7,919 bases of DNA from a virus (Duplodnaviria > Heunggongvirae > Uroviricota > Caudoviricetes), in IMG/VR virus record IMGVR_UViG_3300029095_000201, positions 1-7,919 of that record; one strand, given 5' to 3'. Shown in pieces: positions 1 to 4,388 of this stretch. Within the stretch, counting starts at the first letter, position 1, and the number at the start of each line of letters is the position of its first letter. Position numbers and translations under genes: made by a program. Below the pieces are notes generated by a model that saw nothing but the letters and a program-made list of their open reading frames with translations, was not told where the DNA came from and ran no database searches.

Positions 1-377
1 CGAAAACAGCCATCAATGAAGCCCTGCGCAGAATGAAAAAAGCGGGAATAGAGAAAGCTGAGCTGGAAGCGTTTTTGCGAGAGATGATCAACGGCAAGCA
101 AAAGAGCTGGCTGGCGCATTGTACTGATGCAGAGGCGTTATGTATTGATCGAGTCATAAGTGAGGTGCTGGCAGAGCATCCTGGATTGATTAGTGTCCTC
201 CGGCAACGGTATGAAGGACGGGGGATGACTAAGCGCAAAATGGCTGAATTGCTAAATGATGCACATCCTGAGTGGTGTTTTAGCACATGCGAAAAGCGAA
301 TTGCTAATTGGTTGGCTGTTGCTGAGTATGCCCTATATATTCCCATGCGAGAATCATTTGCTCAAAAAATAGCTTGA
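1..377 (+). CDS. Putative late-gene antiterminator (Q-like), C-terminal portion; 5' end truncated by the window edge
   Basis: The frame of the listed ORF 33-377 stays open back to base 3, so the gene begins upstream of the window. The call rests on position (immediately upstream of a terminator-containing leader and the lysis cassette), not on recognised sequence; I do not recognise the Q family from this C-terminus. Confidence 0.45.
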   Translation, partial: KTAINEALRRMKKAGIEKAELEAFLREMINGKQKSWLAHCTDAEALCIDRVISEVLAEHPGLISVLRQRYEGRGMTKRKMAELLNDAHPEWCFSTCEKRIANWLAVAEYALYIPMRESFAQKIA

Positions 378-402
378 TTTTTTACGCATAAACTGCTTCA
401 AT
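374..402 (+). promoter_or_regulatory. Candidate late promoter (PR-prime-like): -35 TTGATT (374-379), 17-bp spacer, -10 TTCAAT (397-402)
   Basis: Hexamers read directly from the sequence, overlapping the stop codon of the upstream ORF. The -10 is a weak match (4/6). Placement fits the lambdoid arrangement where the late promoter lies just after Q and before a terminator. Confidence 0.2.
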
Positions 403-460
403 TCCGGTATGCTTCGCAAAGCTGTATCGCGAGGCGAACCAAGCGCATGAACTTTACCAG

Positions 461-490
461 AACCCGCCATTGAGCGGGTTTTGTTGTTTC
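461..490 (+). terminator. Rho-independent terminator (tR-prime-like) downstream of the Q-like gene
   Basis: 7-bp stem AACCCGC (461-467) / GCGGGTT (474-480), 6-nt loop CATTGA, followed by the T-rich tract TTGTTGTTTC (481-490). The reverse strand lacks a U-tract, so it is + strand only. Confidence 0.6.
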
Positions 491-561
491 TGGTACTGGT
501 GAACCTGATGTTTCATTTCTGGAGCGCGATTCCTGGCGGAATACCTAGAATCGAGACATTC

Positions 562-570
562 TGGTAAAAT
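562..570 (+). promoter_or_regulatory. Candidate extended -10 promoter element (TGgTAAAAT) for the downstream cargo gene
   Basis: TG at 562-563 and TAAAAT at 565-570, about 30 nt upstream of the start at 599, downstream of the 461-490 terminator. No good -35, which is tolerated with extended -10 elements. Sequence-only prediction. Confidence 0.3.
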
Positions 571-598
571 TGTTTTCAGTACAGGATGTGGAGGTGAG

Positions 599-1168
599 AT
601 GAGAGAACTACCTAAAGATTATTTTTTAGGAGTAGATGATGAGCTCGTCGATTATCTTGAAAAACAAGGGGAAGAGACGATACGAGAGATTCATCTTTCT
701 AACAAAACCAATGTTGAGAATGGATACAAACTTCTGAACATTCAGATTGTTGGAATTGGTTCATCTTTTTTATTGCTGACACAGAAAACTAATTTCGATT
801 TTCTCACCGCCGGAATTACCACATTTACATTACTATGGACATGGTGCGCCATTTACTTGGTATGTACTGGTTTATCTGTGAAGGTTAGGGGCCTGATCAA
901 TGCCCCTCCTGATCATATATATCATGAAAAATATAAGGATATGGAGCCCTCGAGCTTTAAAATATTCGCTGATGCAGGATATTTAGGACCTGATAAGTTA
1001 TTGCCGCTTATACGAAGGTATCGCCTTGTTGACTTGAGTGATACAGCAAGAGAGTTACTGTTGGAAAATGAGAAAATCCGCACGAGTCTCGATAAAGCAA
1101 GGATGTATACCATCCTTGCTCCGGTAGCGGCGATGTTTATCTCGGCTGTTTTTTTATATGTTCAATGA
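599..1168 (+). CDS. Hypothetical integral membrane protein, 189 aa, cargo (moron) gene between Q and the holin
   Basis: ATG at 599 preceded by a strong SD GGAGG (590-594, 4-nt spacer). The translation has three hydrophobic helix-length segments (IQIVGIGSSFLLL; FLTAGITTFTLLWTWCAIYLVCTGL; C-terminal MYTILAPVAAMFISAVFLYV) with a charged N-terminus and a roughly 80-aa charged segment between helices 2 and 3. Visibly AT-rich relative to the flanking lysis genes. No family recognised. Confidence 0.6.
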   Translation: MRELPKDYFLGVDDELVDYLEKQGEETIREIHLSNKTNVENGYKLLNIQIVGIGSSFLLLTQKTNFDFLTAGITTFTLLWTWCAIYLVCTGLSVKVRGLINAPPDHIYHEKYKDMEPSSFKIFADAGYLGPDKLLPLIRRYRLVDLSDTARELLLENEKIRTSLDKARMYTILAPVAAMFISAVFLYVQ

Positions 1169-1298
1169 CTGAGTCGGCAGAATCTCCAACAAAAACACGA
1201 CGTGTAGCAAAGTCTGTAGTACTTTGTGTTGGAGTTGGTTTTGGTGCCACGGGTTGCTGAGGTTTATTTTCACCTTGTGGTTTGTTTTTTTCAGACAT
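1137..1298 (-). CDS. Small hypothetical protein, 53 aa (MSEKNKPQGENKPQQPVAPKPTPTQSTTDFATRRVFVGDSADSVIEHIKKQPR), convergent with and overlapping the 3' end of the 599-1168 gene
   Basis: Internal ATG (complement of 1296-1298) within the listed 130-aa minus ORF, preceded by a strong SD AAGAGGA (complement of 1303-1309, about 4-nt spacer). Pro/Gln-rich hydrophilic N-terminus, no hydrophobic segment. Overlaps the + strand gene by 32 bp (1137-1168). No family recognised; could be a chance ORF in a 3' UTR. Confidence 0.4.
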   Translation of the reverse strand: MSEKNKPQGENKPQQPVAPKPTPTQSTTDFATRRVFVGDSADSVIEHIKKQPR

Positions 1299-1392
1299 AA
1301 AAATCCTCTTTGTTTGAATTGTTACTTTTGGCGATTTAACGATATCAAACACGAGTATATACCGCCAGAAGCTTAATCTGGCACTCCATCTG

Positions 1393-1420
1393 GCCCCGGC
1401 ATGTCCCGGGGCTTTTTCGT
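1393..1420 (+). terminator. Rho-independent terminator between the cargo locus and the holin gene
   Basis: GC-rich 7-bp stem GCCCCGG (1393-1399) / CCGGGGC (1406-1412), 6-nt loop CATGTC, followed by TTTTT (1413-1417). The reverse strand has no U-tract after the stem. Confidence 0.55.
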
Positions 1421-1515
1421 TGTTAGGCTCTGGAAACATCCTCGACTTCTTGTTAGCAAGCCTGAGAGCCTGAATCTTACACTTAGCACCATCCGAACTC
1501 TCGGAGGTGAGGCTT

Positions 1516-1857
1516 ATGAAAATGCACAATGCCCCTCATTCCTGGCCTGACTTACTGGAACTCTTACAAAGTTGGTGGCGTGGAGATACGCCGCTGGGTG
1601 CAGTGGTTATGTCAATTATTATGGCTGGTTTGCGCATTGCCTATTTTGGCGGTGGCGGCGGCTGGAAACGAAAAACGCTTGAGATTCTGCTTTGTGGTGC
1701 TCTGACGCTGACCTTTGCATCCGCGCTTGAGTATGTCGGATGGCCTAAATCACTTTCTGTTGCCATTGGTGGTGGGGTGGGGCTGATTGGTGTTGATGCT
1801 ATTCGTGGTGCGGCAATGAGGGTCATCGGTAACAAGTTCGGTGCCCATAAGGAGTAA
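1516..1857 (+). CDS. S: Holin, class I (three predicted TM segments), lambda S-like with a Met-Lys-Met dual-start motif
   Basis: Sits immediately upstream of the endolysin gene. SD GGAGG at 1503-1507. Begins MKMHN..., i.e. two in-frame Met codons separated by Lys as in the lambda S107/S105 holin/antiholin pair (from memory). Three hydrophobic segments and a charged C-terminal tail. I prefer ATG 1516 over the GTG 1507 of the ORF track because GTG 1507 overlaps the SD. Confidence 0.8.
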   Translation: MKMHNAPHSWPDLLELLQSWWRGDTPLGAVVMSIIMAGLRIAYFGGGGGWKRKTLEILLCGALTLTFASALEYVGWPKSLSVAIGGGVGLIGVDAIRGAAMRVIGNKFGAHKE

Positions 1858-1860
1858 TTA

Positions 1861-2337
1861 ATGCAGACACTTAATTCCCAGCGTAAAGCTTTCCTTGATA
1901 TGGTGGCATGGTCAGAAGGAACAGATAACGGACGGCAGAAAACCAGAAATCACGGTTATGATGTTATTGTCGGTGGCGAACTGTTCACTGATTACTCCGA
2001 TCACCCCCGCAAACTTGTCACGCTAAATCCGAAACTCAAATCAACAGCCGCTGGACGTTACCAGCTTCTTTCACGCTGGTGGGATGCCTACCGCAAGCAA
2101 CTTGGCCTGAAAGATTTTTCTCCAGAAAGTCAGGATGCTGTAGCGCTGCAGCAGATTAAAGAGCGTGGCGCTTTGCCGATGATTGATCGCGGTGATATCC
2201 GTCAGGCTATCGACCGTTGCAGCAATATATGGGCTTCACTGCCGGGCGCTGGTTATGGTCAGTTCGAGCATAAGGCTGACAGTCTGATTGCAAAATTCAA
2301 AGAAGCTGGCGGAACGGTCAGAGAGATTGAGGTATGA
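1861..2337 (+). CDS. R: Endolysin R (lambda-type lytic transglycosylase), 158 aa
   Basis: The translation matches lambda R as I recall it almost residue for residue ([48 protein letters not shown]...). SD AAGGAG at 1848-1853. Stop overlaps the Rz start in an ATGA junction (2334-2337), as in lambda. Confidence 0.9.
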
Positions 2338-2793
2338 GCAGAGTAACCGCGATTATCTCCGCTCTGGTTATCTGCATCGTCGTCTGCCTGTCATGGGGTG
2401 TTAATCATTACCGTGATAACGCCATCGCCTACAAAGAACAGCGCGACAAAAATGCCAGAGAACTGAAGCTGGCGAACGCGGCAATTACTGACATGCAGAT
2501 GCGTCAGCGTGATGTTGCTGCGCTCGATGCAAAATACACGAAGGAGTTAGCTGATGCGAAAGCTGAAAATGATGCTCTGCGTGATGATGTTGCCGCTGGT
2601 CGTCGTCGGTTGCACATCAAAGCAGTCTGTNNNNNNNNNNNCCACCACCGCCTCCGGCGTGGATAATGCAGCCTCCCCCCGACTGGCAGACACCGCTGAA
2701 CGGGATTATTTCACCCTCCGGGAACGACTGGTAATGATGCAGGCCCAACTTGAAGGTGCTCAGCAATACATAACCGAGCAGTGTTTAAAGTAA
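2334..2793 (+). CDS. Rz: Spanin Rz (inner-membrane i-spanin); reading frame broken only by the N-run at 2631-2641
   Basis: N-terminal 99 aa ([21 protein letters not shown]...[10 protein letters not shown]) match lambda Rz as recalled. After the N-run the Rz C-terminus ([29 protein letters not shown]...EQCLK) continues in a frame shifted by +1, ending at TAA 2791-2793. The shift is explained if the N-run stands for a different number of bases, not by a real frameshift. Confidence 0.85.
2554..2734 (+). CDS. Rz1: Spanin Rz1 (outer-membrane lipoprotein o-spanin), embedded in the +1 frame of Rz
   Basis: Starts [20 protein letters not shown] with a lipobox (VVGC) and signal peptide. After the N-run the proline-rich C-terminus [29 protein letters not shown] reads in the matching shifted frame, ending at TAA 2732-2734. 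The embedded arrangement is the established lambda Rz/Rz1 architecture. Confidence 0.8.
2631..2641. other. Run of 11 ambiguous bases (N) inside the Rz/Rz1 overlap, i.e. a masked or unresolved stretch
   Basis: Directly visible. Both Rz and Rz1 shift by the same +1 across it, so the true length is congruent to 1 modulo 3 (10, 13, 16...). Comparison with lambda Rz as recalled (AVC-QSVREA-TTASG) suggests 16 nt. Confidence 0.95.
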
Positions 2794-2930
2794 AATCTTA
2801 ACTACAATATGATTCATTTTGATGATTGTTTCATAAGGAACAGTGAAGTAAGATCTAAGAGGAGTTAAATTTTATACAGTATAATCATAATATTGCAGCA
2901 AGGTGGTTATAATTGAAAGAATATTTAGAT

Positions 2931-4388
2931 ATGAATACATCTCATGTAAGAGTTGTTACTCATATGTGTGGGTTCCTGGTTTGGCTCTATAGTCTTTCAA
3001 TGTTGCCACCAATGGTTGTAGCATTGTTTTATAAAGAAAAAAGCCTGTTCGTTTTCTTTATAACTTTCGTTATATTTTTTTGCATTGGTGGCGGAGCGTG
3101 GTATACAACTAAGAAATCTGGCATTCAATTACGTACCCGTGATGGGTTTATTATAATTGTAATGTTTTGGATTTTGTTTTCTGTTATTAGTGCATTCCCT
3201 TTATGGATTGACTCAGAACTTAATTTAACGTTCATTGATGCTCTGTTTGAAGGGGTTTCTGGAATAACAACAACAGGAGCAACTGTAATTGATGATGTTA
3301 GTTCATTACCTCGGGCATATTTGTACTATCGGTCACAGTTAAATTTTATAGGTGGTTTAGGAGTTATTGTTCTGGCGGTTGCTGTATTGCCATTATTGGG
3401 TATTGGTGGTGCAAAGCTTTATCAGTCAGAAATGCCGGGGCCATTTAAGGATGACAAACTCACTCCCCGCCTGGCCGATACGTCACGGACACTGTGGATA
3501 ACTTATTCTTTATTAGGTATTGCTTGTATTGTCTGTTATAGACTTGCAGGAATGCCTTTGTTTGATGCTATTTGTCACGGGATTTCCACAGTTTCGCTTG
3601 GTGGTTTCTCAACTCATAGCGAGAGTATCGGATATTTTAATAACTATTTGGTTGAGCTGGTGGCTGGTTCTTTTTCCCTGCTATCGGCTTTCAACTTCAC
3701 TCTTTGGTATATTGTTATTAGCAGGAAAACGATAAAACCTTTAATCAGAGATATTGAACTTCGTTTCTTTCTGTTAATAGCCTTAGGGGTGATCATTGTT
3801 ACCTCTTTCCAGGTCTGGCATATAGGTATGTATGACTTGCATGGAAGTTTTATTCATTCGTTTTTTCTTGCCAGCTCCATGCTCACTGATAATGGTTTAG
3901 CTACGCAGGATTATGCAAGTTGGCCCACGCACACGATAGTGTTTTTGCTGTTGTCAAGTTTCTTTGGGGGATGTATAGGTTCAACTTGTGGTGGAATTAA
4001 GTCACTTCGATTTCTTATACTTTTCAAACAAAGCAAACACGAGATAAATCAGCTTTCTCATCCCAGAGCGTTGTTGAGTGTAAATGTAGGAGGGAAGATA
4101 GTTACAGATCGTGTAATGAGGTCTGTATGGAGTTTCTTTTTTCTTTATACTCTCTTCACGGTGTTTTTTATACTGGTGTTAAATGGTATGGGATATGATT
4201 TTCTTACATCATTTGCAACAGTGGCTGCATGTATTAATAATATGGGATTAGGTTTTGGGGCTACTGCATCGTCATTCGGAGTGCTTAATGACATTGCAAA
4301 ATGTTTAATGTGCATAGCTATGATTCTTGGTCGCCTTGAAATTTATCCTGTTATTATATTGTTTTCAGGTTTTTTTTGGCGCTCCTAA
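2931..4388 (+). CDS. trkG: Trk-system potassium uptake protein TrkG (TrkH/KtrB family membrane subunit), 485 aa from ATG 2931
   Basis: Multi-pass membrane protein with TrkH-type motifs recognisable against E. coli TrkH as recalled (GITTTGATV, EMPGPFKDDKLTPRLADTSRTLW, GGCIGSTCGGIK, MILGRLEIYPVIILFSGFFWRS). Strongly AT-rich, as described for trkG of the Rac prophage. An alternative TTG start at 2913 has the better SD (AAGGTGG at 2900-2906); ATG 2931 gives the 485-aa length I recall for K-12 TrkG. Confidence 0.9.
   Translation: MNTSHVRVVTHMCGFLVWLYSLSMLPPMVVALFYKEKSLFVFFITFVIFFCIGGGAWYTTKKSGIQLRTRDGFIIIVMFWILFSVISAFPLWIDSELNLTFIDALFEGVSGITTTGATVIDDVSSLPRAYLYYRSQLNFIGGLGVIVLAVAVLPLLGIGGAKLYQSEMPGPFKDDKLTPRLADTSRTLWITYSLLGIACIVCYRLAGMPLFDAICHGISTVSLGGFSTHSESIGYFNNYLVELVAGSFSLLSAFNFTLWYIVISRKTIKPLIRDIELRFFLLIALGVIIVTSFQVWHIGMYDLHGSFIHSFFLASSMLTDNGLATQDYASWPTHTIVFLLLSSFFGGCIGSTCGGIKSLRFLILFKQSKHEINQLSHPRALLSVNVGGKIVTDRVMRSVWSFFFLYTLFTVFFILVLNGMGYDFLTSFATVAACINNMGLGFGATASSFGVLNDIAKCLMCIAMILGRLEIYPVIILFSGFFWRS

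What the first reader, a model, noticed from the sequence alone, without database searches (positions are those of the whole stretch)
1137..1298. Convergent small ORF overlapping the 3' end of the membrane-protein gene
A 53-aa hydrophilic Pro/Gln-rich ORF on the minus strand has one of the best SD sequences in the window (AAGAGGA) and overlaps the stop-proximal 32 bp of the 189-aa gene tail to tail. Convergent overlap implies mutual antisense transcription and possible cross-regulation, for example a small modulator or antitoxin-like partner of the membrane protein. Alternatively it is a chance ORF in a long 3' UTR. The + strand terminator at 1393-1420 lies in what would be its promoter region, which complicates both readings.
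Basis: seen in the sequence. Interest (0 to 1): 0.5.

Follow-up and report, generated by a model that had tools for sequence, protein, structure and literature searches.

The report
Conserved small antisense prophage gene
The 53-codon reverse-strand ORF is a real, conserved small-protein gene that always travels tail-to-tail with a three-helix membrane-protein gene as a mobile two-gene cassette in temperate phages; the cassette's function has never been studied, and the small protein probably controls the membrane protein.

Summary
In detail: a 53-aa ORF (1298..1137, minus strand), an AAGAGGA Shine-Dalgarno sequence (SD) 5 nt upstream, and a 32-bp tail-to-tail overlap with the 189-aa gene. In this one sequence it is not above chance. 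Comparative data settle it. In 87 of 92 loci with a homologue of the membrane gene (39 distinct small proteins; partner identity down to 49%, 34% in Pasteurella) the convergent ORF is present. It is open in 39/39 distinct loci (other frames at most 8/39). Omega is about 0.1-0.3 in pairs where dS is measurable. A GGAG-type SD and a core motif (D-F-x3-R-x2-V-G-D-S-A-D/E) are conserved. The pair is PHROG 14506 plus 11870, both of unknown function. It occurs behind three antiterminator types, ahead of different lysis cassettes, and in a second slot among tail genes, always with the small gene antisense to the late operon. Best reading (inferred): the small protein neutralises or regulates the membrane effector, with antisense-coupled reciprocal expression, as in the Tha/Ith and Tai/Ati noncontiguous operons but not homologous to them. 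Function is untested.

The parts
458..493 (+). Intrinsic terminator just after the Q-like (DUF1133) antiterminator gene. It is tR'-like and forms the left edge of the cargo slot.
   Evidence: 10-pair stem plus T-run. The same terminator sequence flanks a different cargo in L002 and is alignable in many loci.
562..570 (+). Candidate promoter of the membrane gene: TGGTAAAAT (-10 TAAAAT at 565-570, TG at 562-563), about 29 nt before the ATG.
   Evidence: A (C)AGGTAAAAT / GNTAAAAT motif is conserved at the same distance in nearly all loci, including the tail-slot group. No -35 was detected. Promoter function is inferred, not shown.
599..1168 (+). 189-aa inner-membrane protein gene (PHROG 11870, unknown function). 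It has three long helices, with predicted TM segments at about 46-62, 68-92 and 170-188 and an acidic N-terminal cytoplasmic helix.
1137..1298 (-). The small-protein gene of the finding: 53 aa, PHROG 14506. It has a disordered Pro/Gln/Lys-rich N-terminal half, a conserved core DFxxxRxxVGDSA[DE] and a Lys-rich tail encoded antisense to the partner's last TM codons.
   Evidence: (E=6e-33).
1304..1310 (-). Shine-Dalgarno AAGAGGA, 5 nt upstream of the ATG.
   Evidence: A GGAG/GAGG/AGGA-type motif lies 4-9 nt before the start in all 39 distinct homologues.
1316..1347 (-). Conserved leftward promoter and leader element TGATATCGTTAAATCGCCAAAAGTAAC. It contains an extended -10 TGnTATnnT at 1347-1339. 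The inferred transcription start is near 1332, giving a leader of about 34 nt.
   Evidence: TG, TAT and the final T are conserved while the n positions vary; the same element precedes at least 7 unrelated leftward genes at a fixed distance. Promoter activity is inferred.
1364..1382 (+). Hairpin GCCAGA-N7-TCTGGC between the leftward promoter and the terminator.
   Evidence: folds together with the terminator, z = -2.9. By eye, other loci carry different but still complementary arms at this position (for example GCCGC/GCGGC). Its role is unknown.
1392..1420 (+). Intrinsic terminator for rightward transcripts, placed beyond the small gene and its promoter and about 95 nt before the holin gene.
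   Evidence: It is conserved in 17 diverse loci, with both-side compensatory changes in 6 of its 8 pairs and a T-run.

Best explanation
The ORF is a genuine gene for a roughly 50-aa cytoplasmic, largely disordered protein. It is the obligate antisense partner of the 189-aa three-TM membrane-protein gene. Together, each with its own promoter and a shared rightward terminator, they form a mobile two-gene 'moron' (accessory cargo) cassette nested in the late operon of temperate phages of Enterobacterales and Pasteurellaceae. The most likely mechanism has three parts. First, the small gene is transcribed leftward from a compact extended -10 promoter. Second, the membrane gene is transcribed rightward from its own -10 and, after induction, by Q-antiterminated late transcription. 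Without Q, that rightward transcription runs antisense through the whole small gene before stopping at 1392-1420. Expression of the two genes is therefore reciprocally coupled. Third, the basic small protein binds and neutralises or regulates the membrane effector, like an antitoxin or immunity partner, so that the effector acts only when the small protein is shut off or lost. That could be late in the lytic cycle or upon infection, giving exclusion or abortive infection. SHOWN: the gene is real and under purifying selection; pairing, orientation and signals are conserved. INFERRED: promoter activity, antisense coupling, protein-protein neutralisation and the defence or toxicity role.
For: - Coding. 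The ORF is present next to 87 of 92 membrane-gene homologues (39 distinct proteins). The remaining five are frameshift or ambiguous-base variants and truncated partner genes.
- Coding. The frame is open in 39/39 distinct loci, against at most 8/39 for any other frame.
- Coding. Omega is 0.08-0.3 against the window copy where dS is measurable. Pooled pN/pS is 0.52 in frame against 0.98-1.28 in four other frames. Codon-position differences are 0.40/0.32/0.56.
- Coding. An SD is conserved before the MS[EQ] start. All true homologues among 1.84 billion representatives are stand-alone proteins of 46-52 aa.
- Pairing. The cassette lies behind at least 3 antiterminator types and ahead of at least 3 lysis cassette types.
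- Pairing. It also occurs in a second slot among tail genes, with the same relative orientation.
- Pairing. A Pasteurella homologue at 34% identity keeps an abutting convergent 41-aa ORF with ...VFIGDSVD..KKK.
- Pairing. Overlaps are 20/23/26/32/35 nt, always the same relative phase. The distance matrices of the two proteins correlate at r=0.85.
- Signals. The leftward TGnTATnnT and the rightward TAAAAT are conserved. The + terminator shows compensatory changes.
- Cost of the membrane gene. It was independently inactivated four times: a frameshift at window position 903, a nonsense mutation, an IS insertion and a deletion. The small ORF is intact in the first two.
- Charge. The partner's N-terminal 45 residues have net charge about -5 (my count from the translation), against +3 for the small protein.
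- Precedent. Small overlapping antisense genes whose protein inhibits a neighbouring phage-borne effector, with antisense-coupled switching, are documented for Tha/Ith (PMC11087260) and Tai/Ati (PMC11364771).
Against: - No expression, interaction or phenotype data exist. Literature searches for the sequences or accessions found nothing.
- Neither protein matches any Pfam, NCBIfam or PADLOC model, so a defence or toxin role is by analogy only.
- The promoter calls fail a canonical -35/-10 scan and rest on conservation patterns.
- Linked genes co-diverge anyway, so r=0.85 is weak evidence of interaction.
- A few copies have a frameshifted small ORF with an intact membrane gene (L031; G1148-deletion variants, at least 6 genomes seen in the sampled rows). 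This argues against an indispensable antitoxin unless these are homopolymer sequencing errors or the altered C-terminus is tolerated.
- Part of the Lys-rich tail conservation is forced by the antisense hydrophobic codons of the partner.
Confidence: 0.45

Rival explanations
1. The two proteins are functionally independent. The small protein is real but acts on a host or phage target of its own. The two genes merely share a compact cassette, and the antisense geometry only sets when each is made.
For: - The leftward promoter element drives many unrelated cargo genes in the same slot, so leftward genes there can be autonomous morons.
- The small ORF stays intact in lineages where the membrane gene is dead.
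- AF2 gives no fold that suggests a dedicated binding domain.
Against: - The small gene was never found without the membrane gene or its remnant. All stand-alone hits are cassette members or contig-end fragments.
- The pair moved together into a second genomic slot with a different small-gene upstream region.
- The pair persists at 34% partner identity in another bacterial order.
Confidence: 0.2
2. The polarity is reversed, as in Tai/Ati. The leftward small protein is the lysogen-expressed effector, for example an inhibitor of incoming phages. The rightward membrane protein, made with the late genes, is the counter-measure that protects the phage's own development.
For: - In phi80 the opposite-strand gene inside the Q-controlled operon is the defence. 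It is expressed in the lysogen and reduced when Q is expressed, and the late-strand neighbour is the counter-defence.
- Here too the small gene is the opposite-strand gene in both slots.
Against: - The membrane gene carries its own conserved -10 motif, and a dedicated terminator shields the holin. This implies Q-independent expression in the lysogen.
- A roughly 50-aa disordered peptide is an unusual defence effector.
- Recurrent inactivation hits the membrane gene, as expected for the costly effector rather than the antidote.
Confidence: 0.12
3. The functional product is the leftward RNA, an antisense regulator of the membrane-gene mRNA in the manner of a type I toxin-antitoxin (TA) system or an excludon. 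The peptide is secondary or dispensable.
For: - Rightward transcripts that stop at 1392-1420 would be complementary to the entire leftward mRNA.
- 3'-overlapping antisense control of membrane toxins is established for type I TA systems (general knowledge).
- In Tha/Ith, antisense transcription contributes mildly in addition to the protein.
Against: - Selection acts at the codon level: omega is well below 1 with saturated synonymous sites, the third position is the most variable, the frame is open in 39/39 loci, and SD and start are conserved.
- Indels seen in variants are in frame (PT-repeat expansions).
- In Pasteurella the ORFs abut without overlapping, yet the peptide motif persists.
- A dual RNA-plus-protein role is not excluded.
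Confidence: 0.1
4. It is a chance ORF in the 3' UTR of the membrane gene.
For: In the single window its length is unremarkable. PGAP calls it only 'hypothetical protein', with a different start.
Against: All comparative evidence listed above.
Confidence: 0.02

Closest known systems
Tha/Ith of Staphylococcus aureus phage 80alpha (Rostol et al. 2024, PMC11087260)
   Same: [quoted passage not shown] Its protein product inhibits the effector. Antisense transcription makes the two expression states reciprocal between lysogeny and lysis.
   Different: No homology: Tha is a cytoplasmic HEPN RNase, whereas here the larger partner is a 3-TM protein with no known domain. In 80alpha the effector sits on the lysogenic cI operon and the small gene rises in the lytic cycle. 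Here the larger gene sits on the late (lytic) strand. Function and interaction are untested here.
Tai/Ati of coliphage phi80 and relatives (He et al. 2024, PMC11364771)
   Same: A lambdoid phage with an opposite-strand gene interrupting the Q-controlled late operon and an adjacent functionally linked gene on the late strand. Q expression lowers the opposite-strand product. IS insertions inactivate the costly partner when the antidote is missing.
   Different: No homology: no tblastn hit of the membrane protein to phi80 in the phage collection. In Tai/Ati the opposite-strand gene is the large (26 kDa) defence protein and the late-strand gene is the small antidote, so the sizes are reversed here. 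The genome position also differs.
Type I toxin-antitoxin systems with 3'-overlapping antisense RNAs (for example TxpA/RatA, BsrG/SR4; from general knowledge)
   Same: A membrane protein gene and a convergent, 3'-overlapping transcript from its own promoter, on prophage-like elements.
   Different: Type I toxins are peptides shorter than 60 aa and the antitoxin is a non-coding RNA. Here the membrane protein is 189 aa and the antisense gene is protein-coding under purifying selection.
PHROG families phrog_14506 (small) and phrog_11870 (membrane)
   Same: Direct HMM membership, so the existence of both protein families is already recorded.
   Different: Both are 'unknown function'. Their obligate pairing, overlap, signals and distribution are not described in anything retrieved by the literature searches run here.

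Membership tests
PHROG phrog_14506 (small phage protein, unknown function) | Significant match to the family HMM over the full length | tested here: met
   E=6.3e-33, residues 1-53 on profile positions 19-71 of 71. The L003 homologue gives E=3.7e-25.
PHROG phrog_11870 (189-aa phage membrane protein, unknown function) | Significant full-length match of the neighbouring gene | tested here: met
   E=1.1e-107, positions 1-189 of 189.
Type I toxin-antitoxin | The toxin is a small (<60 aa) hydrophobic peptide | tested here: not met
   The membrane protein is 189 aa with three TM helices.
Type I toxin-antitoxin | The antitoxin is a non-coding antisense RNA | tested here: not met
   The antisense gene shows codon-level purifying selection, a conserved start and a conserved SD.
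Type I toxin-antitoxin | Overlapping convergent transcripts actually produced | not testable with these tools
   Only the geometry (promoter-like element, terminator beyond the small gene) is seen.
Type II toxin-antitoxin | Co-directional bicistronic operon; antitoxin with a DNA-binding fold plus a toxin-binding tail | tested here: not met
   The genes are convergent. No Pfam or NCBIfam domain was found. AF2 shows a mostly disordered peptide.
Noncontiguous-operon effector/inhibitor pairs (Tha/Ith, Tai/Ati) | An antisense gene with its own promoter nested within an operon of the other strand | tested here: inconclusive
   The architecture is met by sequence in both genomic slots. The promoter is inferred from conservation only. 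No transcript data.
Noncontiguous-operon effector/inhibitor pairs (Tha/Ith, Tai/Ati) | Homology to Tha (HEPN) / Ith or to Tai / Ati | tested here: not met
   No Pfam or PADLOC hits. tblastn of the membrane protein against 50,697 phage records hits only cassette carriers, not phi80. The small protein was not searched against phages at protein level (DNA only), and none of the four proteins was compared directly.
Noncontiguous-operon effector/inhibitor pairs (Tha/Ith, Tai/Ati) | The small protein binds and inhibits the effector; the pair confers phage defence | not testable with these tools
   This needs experiments or multimer modelling.
Holin/antiholin lysis regulators | Match to holin families and obligatory linkage to the lysis cassette | tested here: not met
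   No holin Pfam hit for the 189-aa protein, while the true holin at 1516-1857 hits PF05106. The cassette also occurs among tail genes, far from lysis genes.
Known anti-phage defence systems (PADLOC-DB v2) | HMM match of either protein | tested here: not met
   no hit at E<=1 for either protein or for the L003 homologues.

The most novel reading that the evidence does not exclude
The cassette is a previously unrecognised, widespread two-gene phage system. In it a roughly 50-aa intrinsically disordered Pro/Lys/Gln-rich protein with a hydrophobic-GDS-acidic core motif keeps a three-TM membrane effector in check. Release occurs through late antisense transcription or loss of the labile peptide and triggers membrane damage, superinfection exclusion or abortive infection. 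That would be a new defence or TA-like family whose antidote is an antisense-encoded microprotein, and whose leftward promoter element marks a cargo hotspot in lambdoid prophages.
Probability: 0.3. Interest if true: 0.65.

Novelty: new variant of a known kind. Interest (0 to 1): 0.45.

Why it matters
It turns a 'hypothetical protein' of uncertain reality into a well-supported microprotein gene with a defined partner, defined signals and a testable model. The cassette is in about 4% of complete E. coli genomes (229 of 5,426). It also occurs in Klebsiella, Citrobacter, Serratia, Yersinia, Proteus/Providencia, Pantoea and Pasteurellaceae phages. If the small protein proves to be an antisense-encoded inhibitor of a membrane effector, the recently described noncontiguous-operon logic of prophage immunity and autoimmunity control (Tha/Ith, Tai/Ati) would extend to a new, non-homologous protein pair and to the late operon of lambdoid phages. 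Separately, the conserved leftward promoter element offers a handle for finding further cargo genes in the slot between the antiterminator Q and the lysis genes.

Tried and rejected
- Pfam, NCBIfam and PADLOC scans of both proteins gave nothing usable.
- A profile search of the membrane protein against PDB sequences gave only E>0.1 noise.
- Rfam over window 1-2000 at E<=1 returned no family.
- Literature searches for accessions, PHROG ids and peptide strings returned zero papers.
- The search for related loci with the small-protein alignment failed because the alignment is too variable. I used the membrane gene and the DNA element as anchors instead.
- P0014-P0016 share the N-terminus but have divergent ends. 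I first suspected mosaic recombinants. P0014 lies at a contig end, so it is an assembly artefact. P0015 and P0016 were not checked but come from short contigs.
- I considered that the conserved 1316-1347 element plus hairpins could be the Q-dependent late promoter with a short 6S-like RNA on the + strand. I rejected this for three reasons. The element is shared by phages with different antiterminator types. A promoter/terminator unit already lies directly after Q. The conservation pattern fits a leftward TGnTATnnT.
- I considered a lysis-regulator role because of the position next to the holin. I rejected it because the cassette also sits among tail genes.
- The resemblance of VFVGDSAD to block I of GDSL/SGNH hydrolases was judged coincidental. 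A 50-aa peptide cannot carry the fold, and no such HMM hit was obtained.

Full report
**1. What is in the window**

The window is a Rac-like lambdoid prophage of E. coli. It is identical to segments of many complete genomes. The gene order is as follows:
- the C-terminal part of a DUF1133/Q-like antiterminator gene (33-377);
- an intrinsic terminator (458-483 plus T-run);
- the 189-aa membrane ORF (599-1168, +);
- the small ORF of the finding (1298..1137, -);
- a second + strand terminator (1392-1413 plus T-run);
- a lambda-type holin (1516-1857), a GH24 endolysin and Rz/Rz1;
- trkG and ynaK.

**2. The observation**

- a 53-aa ORF;
- AAGAGGA 5 nt before the ATG;
- a 32-bp tail-to-tail overlap;
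- a hydrophilic Pro/Gln/Lys/Thr-rich product (GRAVY -1.24);
- the terminator at 1392-1420.

In this one sequence the ORF is not statistically remarkable. The window has 71 ORFs of at least 30 aa, including a longer meaningless one next door. PGAP annotates the ORF as a 71-aa GTG-start hypothetical protein.

**3. Is it a gene?**

Direct homologues of the peptide are few and close, so I anchored on the partner gene. The membrane protein has more than 100 cluster representatives across Enterobacterales at 42-98% identity. I fetched 88 loci from genome and viral collections and added the annotated E. coli loci.

- *Presence.* In 87 of 92 loci a convergent minus-strand ORF of the same family ends 19-34 nt inside the membrane gene. 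The five exceptions are one frameshift in an A-run (L031), one ambiguous base (L019), the G1148-deletion variant (L004) and two truncated partner genes (L011, L012).
- *Pattern.* The 39 distinct small proteins (47-64 aa) share this pattern: M-S-[EQ]-x-N-K-P-x-G-E-x-K-P-Q, then a variable Pro/Gln/Lys-rich stretch, then D-F-[AST]-x2-R-x-[FIV]-[VI]-G-[DN]-S-A-[DE], then a Lys-rich tail.
- *Open frame.* The frame is open in 39/39 distinct loci, against 0-8/39 for the other five frames.
- *Selection.* Against the window copy, omega is 0.08-0.3 wherever dS is measurable. One example is pS 0.69 against pN 0.14.
- *Frame controls.* Pooled pN/pS is 0.52 in frame against 0.98-1.28 in four control frames. 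The fifth control, the antisense frame that shares wobble positions, gives 0.58, but that strand's frames are closed by stops in most loci.
- *Codon positions.* Codon positions 1, 2 and 3 differ at 0.40, 0.32 and 0.56. The core motif is the most constrained segment.
- *Start signals.* A GGAG-type SD precedes the MS[EQ] start in all 39. This favours ATG 1298 over PGAP's upstream GTG.
- *Family size.* A profile search of 1.84 billion representative proteins finds 18 hits. All the real ones are stand-alone proteins of 46-52 aa.
- *Most distant case.* A Pasteurella multocida copy whose membrane protein is only 34% identical has an abutting convergent 41-aa ORF, MSNQKPSQPKPQPTPSKPQQPAYKKPVPVFIGDSVDIPKKK.

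The chance-ORF alternative is rejected. Both genes are already PHROG families (14506 and 11870) of unknown function.

**4. The pair is a mobile unit**

- The cassette lies behind three unrelated antiterminator types and ahead of different lysis cassettes (annotations).
- In Klebsiella and related phages it lies in a different slot, among tail genes: tail tube and chaperones or Rha upstream, tape measure downstream. There the small gene has a different upstream region.
- In both slots the membrane gene is co-directional with the late genes and the small gene is antisense to them.
- Overlap lengths (20, 23, 26, 32, 35 nt) always keep the same relative phase. The two proteins' distance matrices correlate at r=0.85.
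- I never found the small gene without the membrane gene or its remnant.

**5. Signals**

*Leftward promoter.* Upstream of the small gene, most loci share TGATATCGTTAAATCGCCAAAAGTAAC. In it the TG, the TAT and the last T are invariant or nearly so, while the intervening positions vary. This is the signature of an extended -10 promoter (window 1347-1339, minus strand). It implies a start near 1332 and a leader of about 34 nt.

*Portability.* The element is portable. An exact-pattern scan of viral contigs found it in 82 contigs. There it lies at a fixed distance upstream of at least seven unrelated leftward genes:
- the small-protein family;
- a YmfI-like 92-aa protein, also in E. coli A41;
- a 67-aa CxxC...CxxC protein;
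- several larger proteins.

*Rightward promoter.* The membrane gene has a conserved (C)AGGTAAAAT about 30 nt before its start in both slots (TGGTAAAAT at 562-570 in the window).

*Rightward terminator.* The + strand terminator beyond the small gene is conserved in 17 diverse loci. Six of its eight pairs show both-side compensatory changes.

*Other checks.* No minus-strand terminator was found in 300-1600, and there is no Rfam match.

*Consequence.* Q-independent rightward transcripts would cross the entire small gene and its promoter in antisense and then stop before the holin. Q-modified late transcription would do the same and continue. The promoter fits between the ORF and the terminator. 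All promoter assignments are inferences from conservation, and the canonical -35/-10 scan finds nothing here.

**6. The proteins**

*Membrane protein.* AF2 (pLDDT 84) gives three long helices (14-62, 68-92, 134-188). Their hydrophobic parts form three TM segments. An acidic N-terminal helix and a less confident 93-133 loop lie on the same side. Fold and sequence searches give no informative relatives.

*Small protein.* It is predicted to be mostly disordered, with weak helices at 27-33 and 41-49. It is basic (+3), which is complementary to the partner's acidic N-terminus (about -5 over residues 1-45, my count).

*Lys-rich tail.* The tail is encoded opposite the Phe/Leu-rich codons of the partner's last TM helix, so part of its conservation is imposed by the overlap.

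**7. Natural variants**

The membrane gene has been independently inactivated at least four times:
- a 1-nt deletion at window position 903 in a widespread E. coli/E. marmotae lineage;
- a nonsense codon in a widespread K. pneumoniae lineage;
- an IS insertion;
- a deletion.

The small ORF is intact in the first two. The opposite pattern is rarer. One contig has an A-run frameshift, and a G1148 deletion alters both C-termini in at least six genomes. This asymmetry is what a costly effector with a harmless antidote would give, but it is weak evidence.

**8. Mechanism proposed**

The cassette has the architecture of the 'noncontiguous operons' recently shown to couple prophage immune effectors to their inhibitors.
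- In phi80, an opposite-strand gene inside the Q-controlled operon (taiEcA) and its late-strand neighbour (atiEcA) form a defence/counter-defence pair, and Q lowers Tai (PMC11364771).

By analogy, I propose that the small protein neutralises or regulates the membrane effector and that expression is reciprocally coupled. The support is the obligate pairing, the conserved signals, the charge complementarity and the loss pattern.

Confidence differs by claim:
- that the gene is real: above 0.95;
- that the two genes form one functional unit: about 0.8;
- the inhibitor-with-antisense-coupling model as a whole: about 0.45.

Rivals are independent functions (0.2), reversed polarity (0.12), a mainly RNA-level role (0.1) and chance (0.02).

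**9. Novelty**

Both protein families exist in databases as unknowns, and the architecture has precedents. The proteins are unrelated to those precedents and to any PADLOC, Pfam or NCBIfam model. No retrieved paper mentions them. I rate this a new variant of a known kind, of moderate interest. It is a solid candidate for experimental work rather than a surprise in itself.

Noticed in passing
window 1316-1347 (minus strand); loci L096-L175: The element GATATCGTTAAATCGCCARAA(G/A)TAAC precedes at least seven unrelated leftward genes at a fixed distance with an SD. They include a YmfI-like 92-aa protein, a 67-aa CxxC...CxxC protein and several proteins of 140-170 aa. It looks like a portable leftward promoter and leader that marks a cargo hotspot between the antiterminator and lysis genes of lambdoid prophages.
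   Followed up: partly
window 1364-1382 (+): A hairpin GCCAGA-N7-TCTGGC lies just upstream of the terminator hairpin. Other loci appear to carry different but still complementary arms here (for example GCCGC/GCGGC). This suggests a selected structure, or an operator overlapping the -35 region of the leftward promoter. RNAalifold did not recover it on the MAFFT alignment.
   Followed up: partly
L063, L081, L182 (K. pneumoniae and relatives): The same two-gene cassette occupies a second slot inside the tail-gene block. Tail tube/chaperones or a Rha-like gene lie upstream, and the tape measure or an Arc/Bro-N region lies downstream. The small gene has a different upstream sequence there.
   Followed up: partly
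L002 2498-2992 (E. coli A41): The same slot, with the same flanking terminator and the same right-hand element, holds a different convergent pair. It is a 76-aa + strand ORF (phrog_26625) and a 92-aa YmfI-like minus-strand ORF (phrog_8894), overlapping tail to tail by 15 nt. Convergent overlapping pairs may be a recurring design of this slot.
   Followed up: partly
window 380-493 (+): Directly after the Q-like gene there is a promoter-like stretch (TTGATT...TTCAAT) followed by a strong terminator. This layout is expected for a late promoter with its tR' terminator and a short terminated RNA. A related unit follows other antiterminator types.
   Followed up: no
window 2632-2643: A run of 12 N interrupts the Rz/Rz1 (spanin) coding region. 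The ORFs listed there (2334-2666, 2554-2793) are affected by masking.
   Followed up: no
window 1148; L004 and hits H70-H75: A 1-nt deletion (G1148, next to a T7 run inside the 32-bp overlap) occurs in at least six complete E. coli genomes. It changes the last residues of both proteins at once. The membrane protein ends ...SAFFYMFND. The small ORF loses KKQPR and gains about 30 residues, as in P0005. PGAP then no longer annotates the small ORF.
   Followed up: partly
window 1222-1239 region; P0004, P0006, P0008, P0010: In-frame expansions and contractions of the Pro-Thr repeat (PTPT to PTPTPT or PTPTPTPT) occur in natural variants of the small protein. An A7 run at codons 3-5 is a frameshift hotspot (L031, L179).
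   Followed up: no
L093 (Actinobacillus phage vB_Apl-pPE4, PP818812.1) and H101 (E. coli plasmid CP100067.1): A cassette copy is 52% identical at the membrane-protein level. Its small ORF is annotated (gp33) and its neighbours look enterobacterial and lambdoid (Hok, DUF1367-like). It sits in a record labelled as an Actinobacillus phage, and a 47.7-kb E. coli 'plasmid' carries an equally similar membrane-protein match. Either this reflects cross-family spread or the host assignment deserves a check.
   Followed up: no
window 2913-4388: trkG (potassium transporter) sits between the lysis cassette and ynaK, as in the K-12 Rac prophage. Here the lysis genes upstream are intact, so this is a more complete Rac-like element.
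   Followed up: no
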